From a phage, in the sequence record PZ019084.1: a stretch of DNA of 64,000 nt, one strand, 5' to 3'. The first letter of the stretch is position 1; every line of letters begins with the position of its first letter. A program made the translations under genes and the position numbers. Shown here piece after piece: positions 26,998-30,019 of the stretch. Under the pieces are notes generated by a model that had not been told where the DNA came from, searched no databases, and worked only from the letters and a program-made list of their open reading frames with translations.

Positions 26998-27579
26998 CTA
27001 ACCGAGCTTTTTAGTTAATTCATTCCAATGTTTTCTACACAAAGAAACATAAATTTCATCACCAATACAGATTTGATTACCTTCTTTAACTGGTGTTCCA
27101 TCTTCCATTAATCGAGCTGTCATAATAGCTTTTTTACCACAATGACAAACTGCTTTTAGTTCAATAAGTTTATCTGCAATCGCCAAAAGTTCTTTAGAAC
27201 CTTCAAATAATTTTCCGGCGAAATCAGTCCTTAACCCATAAGCCATAACAGGAACATTATATGTATCAACAATTCGGCTTAATTGATGCACCTGTTCAGT
27301 TTTTAAAAACTGAGCTTCATCTACAAATACACAATGAATATCTTTTTGTGCTTCAGCCCATTTATAGAACTCAAAAATATCCATATTATCCGTAATAATA
27401 TTCGCTTCCTGTTTAATTCCAATGCGAGAAACGACTTCACAGACAGAATCGCGAGTATCAATAGCAGGCTTAAGAACTAATACACCCATTCCACGTTCTT
27501 TATAATTATGCGCAGCAGTCAAAAGAGAAGCAGATTTTCCAGCATTCATTGCTGCATAAGTAAAAATTAAACTCGCCAT
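26998..27579 (-). CDS. tk: Thymidine kinase
   Basis: 193 aa; P-loop AAMNAGKS, zinc-ribbon cysteines near C-terminus; same length as T4 Tk. Confidence 0.9.
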   Translation of the reverse strand: MASLIFTYAAMNAGKSASLLTAAHNYKERGMGVLVLKPAIDTRDSVCEVVSRIGIKQEANIITDNMDIFEFYKWAEAQKDIHCVFVDEAQFLKTEQVHQLSRIVDTYNVPVMAYGLRTDFAGKLFEGSKELLAIADKLIELKAVCHCGKKAIMTARLMEDGTPVKEGNQICIGDEIYVSLCRKHWNELTKKLG

Positions 27580-27580
27580 C

Positions 27581-27769
27581 TTAGTCCTTAGTTAAATTTT
27601 CTAAATATGTTTCTAAATCATTTTCAGCTTTATCGATAGATTTTACTAATTCGTAATATGTTTCGGCATCTCCATAATCTGAAGCCGCTTCAAAAGATAA
27701 ATCTCGTTCTAAACTAACAATTTCGCTGATTAAAAATCGTATTTCATTCTTTTGTTCGCGAGTAATCAT
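27581..27769 (-). CDS. Hypothetical small acidic protein
   Basis: 62 aa ORF. Confidence 0.35.
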   Translation of the reverse strand: MITREQKNEIRFLISEIVSLERDLSFEAASDYGDAETYYELVKSIDKAENDLETYLENLTKD

Positions 27770-27972
27770 AAGGAATTTATATAATCAATAAGTTCTTGTT
27801 CTTTATCGTCGAAATCTTTACACAGTTCTTCGTATTCATCGGTATTAAAAGGACCGCATTCATCACAAACTTTTTCTAATTCATTGTTTTTATCCATAAC
27901 TTCGTGAATAAGAGAAAATAGTCTGTCTTTTTGTTCTTTACTCAGACTCATAACCATGTAACCTTTAAGCAA
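27766..27972 (-). CDS. Hypothetical small acidic protein
   Basis: 68 aa ORF. Confidence 0.35.
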   Translation of the reverse strand: MLKGYMVMSLSKEQKDRLFSLIHEVMDKNNELEKVCDECGPFNTDEYEELCKDFDDKEQELIDYINSL

Positions 27973-28160
27973 TATTCTTCTACGTGCTGTTTACGACCTT
28001 TCTTATCAATAAAGGTATATTCAACGAATGTTCCAATATAGTCTTTATCTACATTATGTGGACTATTAATTGGGCATTTAGTACTGCAAATGCGTTCCCA
28101 TTGACGAATAATTTCCACTTTGTTTTTAGGATCAAACGGATGCGGGTAATGTACTTTCAT
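27948..28160 (-). CDS. Hypothetical small protein
   Basis: 70 aa ORF. Confidence 0.35.
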   Translation of the reverse strand: MKVHYPHPFDPKNKVEIIRQWERICSTKCPINSPHNVDKDYIGTFVEYTFIDKKGRKQHVEEYCLKVTWL

Positions 28161-28611
28161 AATCCACCACTATTAAATCAATATCAGGAGTAAACATGTC
28201 AATTAATTTAGAAACCTTATCCCAATCACCACCAGCAATACCGCAACCTATGCGTGGAATGTAAATTACTGGTTTAAACAAAAGGGTTTCTGCCTGTAGA
28301 TTTAATTCTATCATGCAGTTTACTAAAGCACCATAATCAAGATTAGGACCCGGTTCGTATTGCGTATACAGGTTATAGCATATACCAAATCCTGTAGGAC
28401 TATGTTTAAAAACAATAGACATATCGCCTAATTTATCACGAGAACCGTACTCGGTAGTGGTTTTATCTATTTCTAAAATTTTGGGATAGGCTCTTGCTAA
28501 TTGACCTGCTACGCCAGAGCCCATTGTGTGGAAGCAATTGCACCCGTGCGCAATAATATTACCTTGAAGAAATAGGGCGACAATATCGCCCTTGATATAT
28601 TTTACAATCAT
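28132..28611 (-). CDS. Macro-domain protein (ADP-ribose binding/processing fold)
   Basis: 159 aa; IIAHGCNCFHTMGSGVAGQLA resembles the macro-domain NAAN...GGGVxG motif; later glycine-rich IGCGIAGGDWD segment. Confidence 0.55.
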   Translation of the reverse strand: MIVKYIKGDIVALFLQGNIIAHGCNCFHTMGSGVAGQLARAYPKILEIDKTTTEYGSRDKLGDMSIVFKHSPTGFGICYNLYTQYEPGPNLDYGALVNCMIELNLQAETLLFKPVIYIPRIGCGIAGGDWDKVSKLIDMFTPDIDLIVVDYESTLPASV

Positions 28612-28955
28612 CTAGTACTCAATCCTCGATTATAAGAATCTACCAAACGGTCAACCATTGAATGACAAGCGGCTTTATCTTTCTCCTCCGCAACTGAACA
28701 TTCTAAGGTATTCCACTTTTTAGCATATCGTTTTAATAAAGTATCGTTCTTGTATCTACTTGTTTTATCTCTTTCTCCGTCTTTATATGCATATATTAAT
28801 TTCTGCGCAAATTCAGCTTGGCATGCTTTATTTTTCCCACAATAATCCGCGGCAGTACGGTTTACATACTCTCTAACTTCAGAATATGATATATCTGCTG
28901 ATGCAGAAGCAGAAAATGAAATTAATCCTATACATAAAACCAAAATTTTAGTCAT
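28608..28955 (-). CDS. Secreted protein with signal peptide (position and size of T4 vs; identity unconfirmed)
   Basis: 115 aa; N-terminal signal peptide MTKILVLCIGLISFSASASA. Confidence 0.4.
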   Translation of the reverse strand: MTKILVLCIGLISFSASASADISYSEVREYVNRTAADYCGKNKACQAEFAQKLIYAYKDGERDKTSRYKNDTLLKRYAKKWNTLECSVAEEKDKAACHSMVDRLVDSYNRGLSTR

Positions 28956-29493
28956 TTACTATTTCCAAAAGTTTATTATTTTTAAGGTAGTTAGCCTTTT
29001 CTAGGACTTCAGAAGCATATTTAGAACCTGCTTTAACATTCCATCCCGAATTATAAGAGGATATTGCTTTTCTTATATCACCCTTATGTATATTTAACCA
29101 ATAAGAAAGTTCAATGTACGCCCAGGAAGCTGAATTGGACCGTTTATTCAACATTCTTTTTATTTCAGCATCAGTCATATTATAACCAAGTTCCTTAACT
29201 CTTGCTCGCATAGTTGGCAAATAATTTTGGAACATTCCATAGGCATGATGCTTTGGTTTAGATTTTAAATTAACTCCGGCAGAGCTTTCTTGCCATAAAA
29301 TAGCAGCCATTATATGACCTAATCCGCTCTTGTGGATGTTTTTGTGTGTTTTATATTTTCCATCCTTAGAAAATTGTTCCCCGAATTGATACGCGTAACG
29401 CATGTTATCGAGTTGGACATTACTGAAAGTATGCTCGGAGCTATGCGCCATCATTGAAATGGCCAATAGACCAGCGAGTAGTGCTTTTCTCAT
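28948..29493 (-). CDS. Secreted lytic-transglycosylase-like protein
   Basis: 181 aa; signal peptide MRKALLAGLLAISMMAHS; SLT-like segment AAILWQESSAGVN...YGMFQ. Confidence 0.5.
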   Translation of the reverse strand: MRKALLAGLLAISMMAHSSEHTFSNVQLDNMRYAYQFGEQFSKDGKYKTHKNIHKSGLGHIMAAILWQESSAGVNLKSKPKHHAYGMFQNYLPTMRARVKELGYNMTDAEIKRMLNKRSNSASWAYIELSYWLNIHKGDIRKAISSYNSGWNVKAGSKYASEVLEKANYLKNNKLLEIVND

Positions 29494-29500
29494 GCTTACC

Positions 29501-29962
29501 TCATTGAGTTTTAATTACTGCTTTAGAAGCCTTTCCCGGTAAACGACGACTGTTGATAATTGCCATCCTGCATTGAAGCGACGGGTCTTTGAACTTCGCA
29601 TTAGGTTTACAAACTGTAAATCCAAGCCAAAGATTTCCATCTGTGATTTCTAAACGCCCAGGACGATATTCAACCCCATCAATAAAATCCTCGTCAATGT
29701 CAGGACGCGGAGGCATACTCAGGAATTCATTAACTTCTAAAACATGGTCTTTTATTTTGTGGAATAATTCAAAAACATATGTCTCATCAATCTCCCGTTG
29801 AATTGCACGATCAAGGAGATGCTGAGAATATTTTAGATGAAACGATGAGACCCCTGCTGCTTTTGATGCCTCACGAATCTCATTGTTAATTTGACGAAAC
29901 TCCGACTCAAAGTGACGACGAAGCTTATTTCGACGGATAAAAACTTCTGTGTTGATAGTCAT
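29501..29962 (-). CDS. regB: Endoribonuclease RegB
   Basis: 153 aa, same length as T4 RegB; GAGGAG RBS; early promoter immediately upstream. Confidence 0.85.
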   Translation of the reverse strand: MTINTEVFIRRNKLRRHFESEFRQINNEIREASKAAGVSSFHLKYSQHLLDRAIQREIDETYVFELFHKIKDHVLEVNEFLSMPPRPDIDEDFIDGVEYRPGRLEITDGNLWLGFTVCKPNAKFKDPSLQCRMAIINSRRLPGKASKAVIKTQ

Positions 29963-29989: not shown

Positions 29990-30019
29990 ATTATACCACA
30001 GTCAAGAGGAAAAGTAAAC
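29990..30019 (-). promoter_or_regulatory. T4-type early promoter (regB)
   Basis: Plus strand attataccaca...aaagtaaac. Confidence 0.55.

What the first reader, a model, noticed from the sequence alone, without database searches (positions are those of the whole stretch)
28132..28611. Macro-domain protein in the tk-regB early region
The ...HGCNCFHTMGSGVAGQLA... and later glycine-rich segments fit the macro-domain ADP-ribose-binding signature. Phage macro domains can reverse ADP-ribosylation, and ADP-ribosylation is used both by T-even phages (Alt/ModA/ModB) and by host toxin systems such as DarT. The gene is therefore a candidate counter-defence or regulatory eraser.
Basis: partly seen in the sequence, partly recalled or inferred. 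Interest (0 to 1): 0.5.

Follow-up and report, generated by a model that had tools for sequence, protein, structure and literature searches.

The report
T4 Tk.4/AdfM macrodomain, divergent allele
This gene is a real macrodomain (ADP-ribose-removing) protein, the counterpart of phage T4 gene tk.4, which a 2025 preprint already showed protects T4 against the bacterial DarTG2 DNA-ADP-ribosylating defence, so the finding is correct but already known.

Summary

It lies between vs and tk.3 in a Tequatrovirus tk-regB block, so it is the positional orthologue of T4 tk.4. A November 2025 preprint (HIDEN-SEQ) found tk.4 to be the only T4 gene conditionally essential on a DarTG2 host. A clean knockout sensitised T4, and the gene was named adfM.

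This work adds three points:
- The family has an invariant Gln84 where TARG1 and DarG have the catalytic Lys. That matches the essential Gln85 of SCO6735, which cleaves thymidine-linked ADP-ribose on DNA. It is therefore not a captured DarG.
- It lacks SCO6735's DNA-positioning lysines and is acidic (pI 5.0).
- The window carries a distinct allele, 58% identical in protein to T4's, set as a sharp divergence island in flanks that are 84-96% identical.

Hydrolysis of ADP-ribosyl-thymidine by this family remains inferred and has not been shown.

The parts
28132..28611 (-). tk.4 / adfM orthologue: a 159-aa stand-alone macrodomain of the ALC1-like class with a Gln-type active site
28497..28548 (-). 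Codons 22-38: HGCNCFHTMGSGVAGQL, the first ADP-ribose-site loop (invariant H22, G23, N25, C26, G33, A35)
   Evidence: Invariant in 63/63 homologues. N25 aligns with Asn23 of PhiKZ AdfM, whose mutation lowers de-ADP-ribosylation of DNA. H22 aligns with Poa1p His23 and T29 with Poa1p Ser30 (alignment; the numbering offset is inferred from the names of the mutant entries).
28360..28374 (-). Codons 80-84: NLYTQ, the end of the central strand. Gln84 sits where TARG1 has Lys84 and DarG has Lys80, and it equals SCO6735 Gln85.
   Evidence: hhalign of the family profile against TARG1 and BT1257. BT1257 and SCO6735 align NMIGQ to NMIGQ, with Gln85 confirmed by the chain numbering offset. Q84 is invariant in 63/63. 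SCO6735 Q85A is inactive (PMC9411070).
28222..28257 (-). Codons 119-130: PRIGCGIAGGDW, the second glycine-rich (diphosphate-binding) loop. Ala126 sits where TARG1 has Asp125.
   Evidence: P119, G122, G124 and W130 are invariant. It aligns to PRIGCGLAGGKW of BT1257, PRIGCGLAGGTW of SCO6735 and PRIGCGLDRLQW of TARG1.
28140..28570 (.). Divergence island relative to T4: an allelic cassette confined to the tk.4 coding sequence
   Evidence: Nucleotide identity to T4 is 61.7% in tk.4, against 96% in vs, 84% in tk.3, 88% in tk.2 and 90% in tk.1. The first 36 nt of the ORF and the upstream sequence are identical.
28608..28611 (-). ATGA overlap of the vs stop codon and the tk.4 start codon, suggesting translational coupling within one transcript
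   Evidence: Read directly from the sequence.
29990..30018 (-). Nearest strong sigma-70-like promoter match upstream on the coding strand (TTTACT-17-TATAAT with TG), upstream of regB. It is a candidate early promoter for regB-vs.1-vs-tk.4.
   Evidence: Consensus scan only. The number of such matches in the region is not above shuffles, so this part is tentative. No MotA-box match lies between regB and tk.4.

Best explanation
The ORF encodes the Tequatrovirus Tk.4/AdfM protein. It is a free-standing macrodomain made from the regB-vs.1-vs-tk.4 transcription unit. The host DarT2 toxin ADP-ribosylates thymidines in single-stranded phage DNA and so blocks replication. Tk.4 binds the ADP-ribose through its two glycine-rich loops and hydrolyses the ribose-N3(thymine) bond, releasing ADP-ribose and restoring replicable DNA.

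The chemistry is most likely that of the SCO6735 type. An invariant Gln84 positions the distal ribose and a backbone-held water does the catalysis. There is no lysine or Schiff-base step as in TARG1 and DarG.

Shown here: the fold, the structural class, the active-site residues and the orthology to T4 tk.4. Shown by others for T4: the gene is needed only on DarTG2 hosts. Inferred: that this 58%-identical allele does the same job, and that the job is enzymatic hydrolysis rather than toxin binding.
For: - It matches the macrodomain half of the DarG models in PADLOC (E = 5e-7) and NCBIfam (E = 1.5e-6).
- It is syntenic with and homologous to T4 tk.4.
- T4 tk.4 was the sole hit conditionally essential on DarTG2, and its knockout is DarTG2-sensitive. 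T4 lacking adfA and adfN stays DarTG2-resistant, so another factor was expected.
- Gln84 equals SCO6735 Gln85 and is invariant in 63/63 homologues. SCO6735 removes ADP-ribose from thymidine in DNA, rescues cells from DarT toxicity, and is dead as Q85A.
- Asn25 equals Asn23 of PhiKZ AdfM, a phage macrodomain shown in vitro to strip DarT2-made ADP-ribose from a TNTC oligonucleotide.
Against: - No biochemical assay exists for any Tk.4-family protein.
- The genetic evidence comes from a preprint and from an allele only 58% identical. That allele differs inside the diphosphate loop: IGAGIGKGNW in T4 against IGCGIAGGDW here.
- The two lysines that position DNA in SCO6735 are not conserved. K34 corresponds to Ser32, and K89 lies in a loop insertion that Tk.4 lacks.
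- The protein is acidic (pI 5.0, against about 8.6 for BT1257 and TARG1), which is unusual for an enzyme that works on ssDNA.
- By sequence, Poa1p, an ADP-ribose-1''-phosphate phosphatase, is as close as the DNA-acting relatives.
Confidence: 0.72

Rival explanations
1. It is an ADP-ribose-1''-phosphate phosphatase, the historical 'A1pp phosphatase' annotation. In this reading it clears a small-molecule by-product of RNA 2'-phosphotransfer or repair, as yeast Poa1p does.
Against: The T4 orthologue has a specific DarTG2 phenotype and is dispensable otherwise. From my own knowledge, the T4 Pnk/Rnl1 tRNA-repair route does not produce a 2'-phosphate or Appr>p, so no source of the substrate is evident. 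The 'phosphatase' label is transferred from a motif, not from an assay.
Confidence: 0.08
2. It neutralises DarT2 mainly by binding and inhibiting the toxin stoichiometrically, with hydrolysis secondary.
For: Catalytically dead SCO6735 Q85A, DarG K80A and TARG1 K84A all inhibit DarT in vitro, and SCO6735 does so most strongly. A sharp allelic divergence confined to the gene is what co-evolution with variable toxin surfaces would give. The acidic surface is poorly suited to DNA.
Against: The protein lacks the C-terminal DarT-binding domain of DarG (it covers model positions 2-142 of 338). Every residue of the ADP-ribose site is invariant across 63 homologues down to about 40% identity, which argues for selection on catalysis or ligand binding. 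The family occurs in 2,860 phage records from many hosts, which fits a toxin-independent product-erasing activity better.
Confidence: 0.1
3. It erases ADP-ribose from another substrate. Candidates are protein or RNA marks laid down by the phage's own Alt/ModA/ModB enzymes, ADP-ribosylated RNA from other defence toxins, and NAD-derived immune signals.
For: SCO6735 and TARG1 also act on protein-linked ADP-ribose. A survey of viral NAD/ADPr systems argued that phage macrodomains may mostly target small ADP-ribose derivatives (PMC9503650). T-even phages do use ADP-ribosylation.
Against: No phenotype other than DarTG2 sensitivity was reported for T4 tk.4. From my own knowledge, Alt/ModA/ModB modify arginine, a linkage macrodomains are not known to cleave. 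Nothing in the window links the gene to these systems.
Confidence: 0.08

Closest known systems
T4 Tk.4 = AdfM (anti-DarT factor macrodomain), bioRxiv 10.1101/2025.11.20.689424
   Same: Same position between vs and tk.3, same length class, homologous over the full length (58% identity, E = 1e-70). The ADP-ribose-site residues called invariant here (H22, N25, Q84, G122, G124, W130) are shared.
   Different: 42% of residues differ, including inside the second glycine loop (IGCGIAGGDW here, IGAGIGKGNW in T4). The nucleotide divergence is confined to the gene (61.7%, against 84-96% in neighbouring genes). This allele has not been tested.
SCO6735 (Streptomyces coelicolor) and BT1257 (Bacteroides thetaiotaomicron): orphan ALC1-like macrodomains. 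SCO6735 cleaves thymidine-linked ADP-ribose on DNA (PMC9411070).
   Same: Best sequence and fold matches. Stand-alone proteins with no adjacent darT. Gln at the position of the TARG1/DarG catalytic Lys, and Ala-Gly-Gly in place of TARG1 Asp125.
   Different: Tk.4 lacks the 6-residue longer 'mobile loop' that carries K89, has Ser or Ala at the position of K34, and is acidic rather than basic. Identity is only about 26-29%.
DarG antitoxin macrodomain (M. tuberculosis 5M3I, T. aquaticus 5M31/5M3E, T. africanus DarTG 7OMU)
   Different: No C-terminal DarT-binding domain, no linked darT gene, Gln instead of the catalytic Lys80, and a score far below the equivalog cut-off (27.7 against 250 bits).
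PhiKZ gp104, also named AdfM (Cell Rep 2026, PMC13309987)
   Same: A phage-encoded stand-alone macrodomain that counters DarTG2. The conserved Asn (N23 there, N25 here) aligns.
   Different: Barely detectable pairwise similarity (BLASTP E = 0.001 over 23 residues). gp104 carries an FPTK motif (Lys type) where Tk.4 has YTQ, although hhalign is not reliable in that segment. gp104 is imported into the phage nucleus. The shared name therefore covers two independent recruitments.
Yeast Poa1p (ADP-ribose-1''-phosphate phosphatase) and human TARG1/OARD1
   Different: TARG1's Lys84/Asp125 dyad is replaced by Gln84/Ala126. The Poa1p similarity by sequence is mostly in the N-terminal half.

Membership tests
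Macro domain superfamily (Pfam PF01661) | Profile match above the curated gathering score | tested here: met
   32 bits against a cut-off of 22, E = 1.3e-7, covering profile positions 2-117 of 118.
Macro domain superfamily (Pfam PF01661) | Three-layer alpha/beta/alpha macro fold | tested here: met
Macro domain superfamily (Pfam PF01661) | Two glycine-rich loops lining the ADP-ribose cleft | tested here: met
   M30-G-S-G33 and G122-C-G-I-A-G-G128. G33, G122 and G124 are invariant in 63 homologues.
Macro domain superfamily (Pfam PF01661) | Binds ADP-ribose | not testable with these tools
   Needs ITC, a thermal-shift assay or a co-crystal.
ALC1-like macrodomain class (TARG1 / DarG / SCO6735 / Poa1p) | Closest structural neighbours are members of the class, separated from MacroD-like and other classes | tested here: met
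TARG1/DarG lysine-type hydrolases | Catalytic Lys at the end of the central strand (TARG1 K84, DarG K80) | tested here: not met
   Gln84 aligns with TARG1 Lys84 and is invariant in 63/63 homologues.
TARG1/DarG lysine-type hydrolases | TARG1 Asp125 partner of the dyad | tested here: not met
   Ala126 aligns with Asp125.
SCO6735/BT1257 glutamine-type sub-class | Gln at the position of the catalytic Lys (SCO6735 Gln85, essential) | tested here: met
   Tk.4 NLYTQ aligns with BT1257 NMIGQ. BT1257 NMIGQ aligns with SCO6735 NMIGQ, and chain index 105 minus a 20-residue tag gives Gln85. Essentiality is from PMC9411070.
SCO6735/BT1257 glutamine-type sub-class | Extended mobile loop with Lys89, plus Lys34, for DNA positioning | tested here: not met
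   BT1257 has a 6-residue insertion after the Gln that Tk.4 lacks. The K34 position is Ser32, and Ala in most homologues.
DarG antitoxin (NCBIfam NF048014 equivalog; PADLOC DarG) | Two-domain protein (macrodomain plus C-terminal DarT-binding domain) scoring above the equivalog cut-off | tested here: not met
   27.7 bits against a cut-off of 250. The match covers model positions 2-142 of 338 only, and PADLOC positions 3-144 of 329.
DarG antitoxin (NCBIfam NF048014 equivalog; PADLOC DarG) | Encoded next to a darT toxin gene | tested here: not met
   The neighbours are vs and tk.3 (DUF7202), with no ADP-ribosyltransferase.
T-even AdfM (T4 tk.4) | Full-length homology and the same genomic slot between vs and tk.3 | tested here: met
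   58% identity over 155 aa with no gaps, E = 1e-70. T4 annotation and gene order. Flanks 84-96% identical.
T-even AdfM (T4 tk.4) | Required for growth on DarTG2-carrying hosts | not testable with these tools
   Shown only for the T4 allele.
Poa1p-type ADP-ribose-1''-phosphate phosphatase | His23 and Ser30 of Poa1p (residues mutated in PDB 6LFS and 6LFT) | tested here: inconclusive
   His22 is conserved and invariant. The Ser30 position is Thr29, which is variable in the family: T in 40 of 63, and also V, M, Q and L. The residue numbering offset is inferred from the PDB chain.

The most novel reading that the evidence does not exclude
The discrete tk.4 allele classes are specificity variants kept by an arms race. 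Evidence for discrete classes: 313 phage records are at 90% protein identity or more to this allele, almost none lie between 80% and 90%, and the T4 type sits at about 58%. All of this occurs in otherwise near-identical backbones. On this reading, the window allele and the T4 allele would neutralise different DarT2 variants or different ADP-ribose linkages, partly through direct toxin recognition. That would make tk.4 a swappable counter-defence cassette, not a generic product eraser.
Probability: 0.15. Interest if true: 0.55.

Novelty: already known. Interest (0 to 1): 0.27.

Why it matters
DarTG systems stop phages by ADP-ribosylating their DNA, and T-even phages carry layered answers to them. 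AdfA and AdfN act against DarTG1 and Tk.4/AdfM acts against DarTG2. Recognising this gene helps predict which therapeutic or environmental T4-like phages can grow on DarTG2-bearing strains.

The small additions made here matter for mechanism:
- The T-even protein is a glutamine-type relative of the orphan SCO6735/BT1257 branch, not a captured DarG.
- It lacks the known DNA-positioning lysines.
- It exists in sharply distinct alleles.

These points give concrete mutants (Q84A, N25A) and allele swaps to test. None of it changes the fact that the macrodomain annotation and the anti-DarTG2 role are already in the literature.

Tried and rejected
- **A captured DarG antitoxin.** Rejected on domain architecture, on score and on the missing catalytic Lys.
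- **The raw phmmer pairwise alignment to BT1257.** It placed Tk.4 Gln84 opposite an Asp because it did not open a gap for the BT1257 loop insertion. The profile alignment corrects this, so I did not use the phmmer register.
- **hhalign against PhiKZ gp104.** It is unreliable around the strand-end motif, with blank confidence values. The Lys-type assignment of gp104 therefore rests on its FPTK motif and is only probable.
- **A middle (MotA-box) promoter directly upstream of tk.4.** None was found between regB and tk.4. The sigma-70-like scan is not enriched over shuffles, so the promoter assignment stays tentative.
- **Genomic context of a bacterial homologue.** The homologue (Pelagimonas, 40% identity) is a stand-alone gene with no darT nearby. 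This says nothing further about function.
- **Failed literature calls.** Searches failed only because a search term was shorter than three characters.

Full report
**The observation**

The window has an ATG-to-stop ORF at exactly 28132..28611 on the minus strand, 159 codons long. The later glycine-rich segment is PRIGCGIAGGDW at residues 119-130. The ORF start overlaps the stop codon of the upstream gene in an ATGA. Its 3' end overlaps the next ORF by 29 nt.

The neighbours on the same strand are:
- thymidine kinase at 26998-27579 (PF00265, E = 1.5e-60);
- two DUF7438 paralogues and a DUF7202 protein, which are T4 tk.1, tk.2 and tk.3;
- the 115-aa vs gene;
- an SLT-domain protein, vs.1;
- RegB at 29501-29962 (PF10715, E = 1.4e-68).

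A 2.1-kb stretch around the ORF is 95-97% identical to many Tequatrovirus genomes. The gene order is that of T4, where the gene in this slot is tk.4, annotated 'phosphatase; contains A1pp phosphatase motif'.

**Is it a macrodomain?**

Yes. The evidence is as follows:
- The protein passes Pfam's Macro model over its full length: 32 bits against a cut-off of 22.
- It matches PHROG 335 at E = 1.2e-71.
- By sequence it matches solved macrodomains: BT1257 3.7e-10, Poa1p 1.6e-9, SCO6735 8.5e-8, M. tuberculosis DarG 4.9e-5, TARG1 0.01.
- An AlphaFold2 model built on 63 homologues is confident, with pLDDT 94.3 and pTM 0.89.
- Foldseek gives probability 1.0 to TARG1, BT1257, Poa1p, DarG and SCO6735.

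**What is already known**

T4 lacking both adfA and adfN remains fully resistant to DarTG2, and the authors of that study suggested a further factor (PMC11825919).

A November 2025 preprint (bioRxiv 10.1101/2025.11.20.689424) ran a T4 transposon library on a DarTG2 host. [quoted passage not shown] A clean tk.4 knockout sensitised T4 to DarTG2. The authors noted structural similarity to the M. tuberculosis DarG macrodomain and named the gene adfM. They state that enzymatic removal of ADP-ribose from DNA 'seems likely', which means it was not assayed.

Independently, a 2026 Cell Reports paper gave the same name, AdfM, to PhiKZ gp104. That work showed in vitro that gp104 removes DarT2-made ADP-ribose from a TNTC oligonucleotide, and that an N23A mutation reduces the activity (PMC13309987).

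Several GenBank records already label the gene in this slot 'macro domain-containing protein' or 'Poa1p-like'. The finding is correct but not new.

**What the active site says**

I aligned the 63-sequence family profile to TARG1. I supplied the TARG1 sequence from memory. It is consistent with the literature numbering K84/D125 and with the fragment printed. The alignment puts Tk.4 Gln84 on TARG1 Lys84 and Ala126 on Asp125.

Aligning the profile to BT1257 puts NLYTQ84 on NMIGQ, followed by a 6-residue insertion in BT1257. BT1257 and SCO6735 align NMIGQ to NMIGQ. The 5E3B chain numbering carries a 20-residue offset, which I checked against the published Val25 and Lys34. With that offset, this Gln is SCO6735 Gln85.

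The SCO6735 study reports the following (PMC9411070):
- The SCO6735 sub-class lacks the TARG1 and DarG catalytic residues.
- Q85A abolishes activity.
- The enzyme efficiently removes ADP-ribose from thymidine in DNA.
- It rescues cells from DarT toxicity.

In the Tk.4 family, Gln84 is invariant in 63 of 63 sequences, down to about 40% identity. H22, G23, N25, C26, G33, A35, N80, Y82, P119, G122, G124 and W130 are also invariant. Asn25 aligns with Asn23 of PhiKZ AdfM. T4's own Tk.4 also has NLYTQ.

The T-even AdfM is therefore best described as a glutamine-type relative of the orphan SCO6735/BT1257 branch. It is not a captured DarG. Four observations support this:
- It matches only the macrodomain half of the DarG models.
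- It scores 27.7 bits against an equivalog cut-off of 250.
- It has no C-terminal toxin-binding domain.
- It has no darT neighbour.

PhiKZ gp104 is barely similar to Tk.4 in a pairwise comparison (E = 0.001 over 23 residues). It carries FPTK where Tk.4 has YTQ. The two proteins called AdfM are therefore independent recruitments. The exact register in that segment is not reliable.

**Points that do not fit neatly**

- SCO6735 needs Lys34 and Lys89 to position DNA, and the double mutant is dead. In Tk.4 the Lys34 position is Ser32, which is Ala in most of the family. Lys89 lies in the loop insertion that Tk.4 lacks.
- The protein is acidic, with pI 5.0 here and 5.9 in T4. BT1257 and TARG1 are at about 8.6.

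How Tk.4 engages single-stranded DNA is therefore open. A contribution from direct toxin inhibition cannot be excluded, since dead SCO6735, DarG and TARG1 all show it in vitro.

**The allele in this window**

The protein is only 58% identical to T4 Tk.4. Nucleotide identity to T4 by gene is:

| Gene | Identity to T4 |
|---|---|
| tk.4 | 61.7% |
| vs | 95.7% |
| tk.3 | 84% |
| tk.2 | 88% |
| tk.1 | 90.5% |

The divergent block runs from about 28140 to 28570. The first 36 nt of the ORF and the upstream sequence are identical to T4.

Across 50,697 phage records the family occurs in 2,860. By protein identity to this allele, 313 records are at 90% or more, only 7 at 80-90%, 103 at 60-80% and the rest below 60%. 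The alleles are therefore discrete. One record, Escherichia phage PBM-1, is 100% identical. Shigella phage pSs-1 is 99.4% identical at the DNA level.

The two alleles differ inside the diphosphate loop, with IGCGIAGGDW here and IGAGIGKGNW in T4. The window's version is the family consensus. This pattern fits cassette exchange of a counter-defence gene. Mosaic divergence of early genes is common in T-even phages (my own knowledge), so I rate a specificity difference as possible but unproven.

**Mechanism and rivals**

The best-supported explanation, at confidence about 0.72, has these steps. The protein is made from the regB-vs.1-vs-tk.4 unit. It binds ADP-ribose attached by DarT2 to thymidine in phage ssDNA and hydrolyses the linkage with SCO6735-type chemistry, which restores replication.

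The rivals are:
- an ADP-ribose-1''-phosphate phosphatase like Poa1p, which shares His22 and has Thr at the Ser30 position, but has no evident substrate source in T4 infection and no supporting phenotype;
- stoichiometric inhibition of DarT2;
- erasure of other ADP-ribose conjugates or signals.

Each is listed with the result that would refute it.

**Expression**

The ATGA overlap with vs suggests coupled translation. The nearest strong sigma-70-like match on the coding strand lies upstream of regB at 30018-29990. The scan is not enriched over shuffles, and no MotA-box match lies between regB and tk.4. 'Early' expression is therefore plausible from T4 knowledge but was not established here.

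**Verdict**

Residual interest lies in three things: the untested biochemistry of the glutamine-type phage enzyme, its missing DNA-binding lysines, and the discrete alleles.

Noticed in passing
window 28140-28570 (within tk.4): A sharp divergence island relative to T4. tk.4 is 61.7% identical at the nucleotide level, while vs, tk.3, tk.2 and tk.1 are 84-96% identical. Protein identities across phage records are bimodal: 313 records at 90% or more, 7 at 80-90%, and the T4 type at about 58%.
   Followed up: partly
window 28608-28955 (vs), minus strand: The 115-aa Vs protein begins MTKILVLCIGLISFSASASA, which looks like a cleavable Sec signal peptide. That is odd for a protein described as a modifier of the cytoplasmic valyl-tRNA synthetase. 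It has no Pfam match. The HIDEN-SEQ preprint reports vs as the T4 gene most strongly depleted in minimal medium.
   Followed up: no
window 28948-29493 (vs.1), minus strand: Vs.1 has a signal-peptide-like N-terminus (MRKALLAGLLAISMMAHS) and an SLT lytic-transglycosylase domain (PF01464, E = 4.8e-5). This suggests an exported murein-cleaving enzyme encoded right next to vs.
   Followed up: no
window 28574-28592, within codons 7-13 of tk.4: A perfect 8-bp stem with a 3-nt loop (AGGGCGATATTGTCGCCCT) lies 20 nt downstream of the start codon. It is identical in T4 and sits at the 5' edge of the divergent block. It could affect translation or mark a recombination boundary, or it could be chance.
   Followed up: partly
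window 27581-27769 and 27766-27972 (tk.1, tk.2): The two small ORFs downstream of tk.4 and tk.3 are paralogues. Both match DUF7438 (E = 3.6e-15 and 4.3e-19). tk.3 matches DUF7202. The functions of all three are unknown.
   Followed up: no
literature: PMC13309987 versus bioRxiv 10.1101/2025.11.20.689424: The name AdfM is used for two macrodomain proteins that are barely similar: PhiKZ gp104 (FPTK, Lys type, assayed in vitro) and T4 Tk.4 (YTQ, Gln type, genetics only). BLASTP between gp104 and the window protein gives only E = 0.001 over 23 residues.
   Followed up: yes
L002 6001-6459 (Pelagimonas phthalicica chromosome): A bacterial homologue at 40% identity is a stand-alone gene among unrelated housekeeping-type genes, with no darT nearby. 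In this it resembles the orphan SCO6735.
   Followed up: partly
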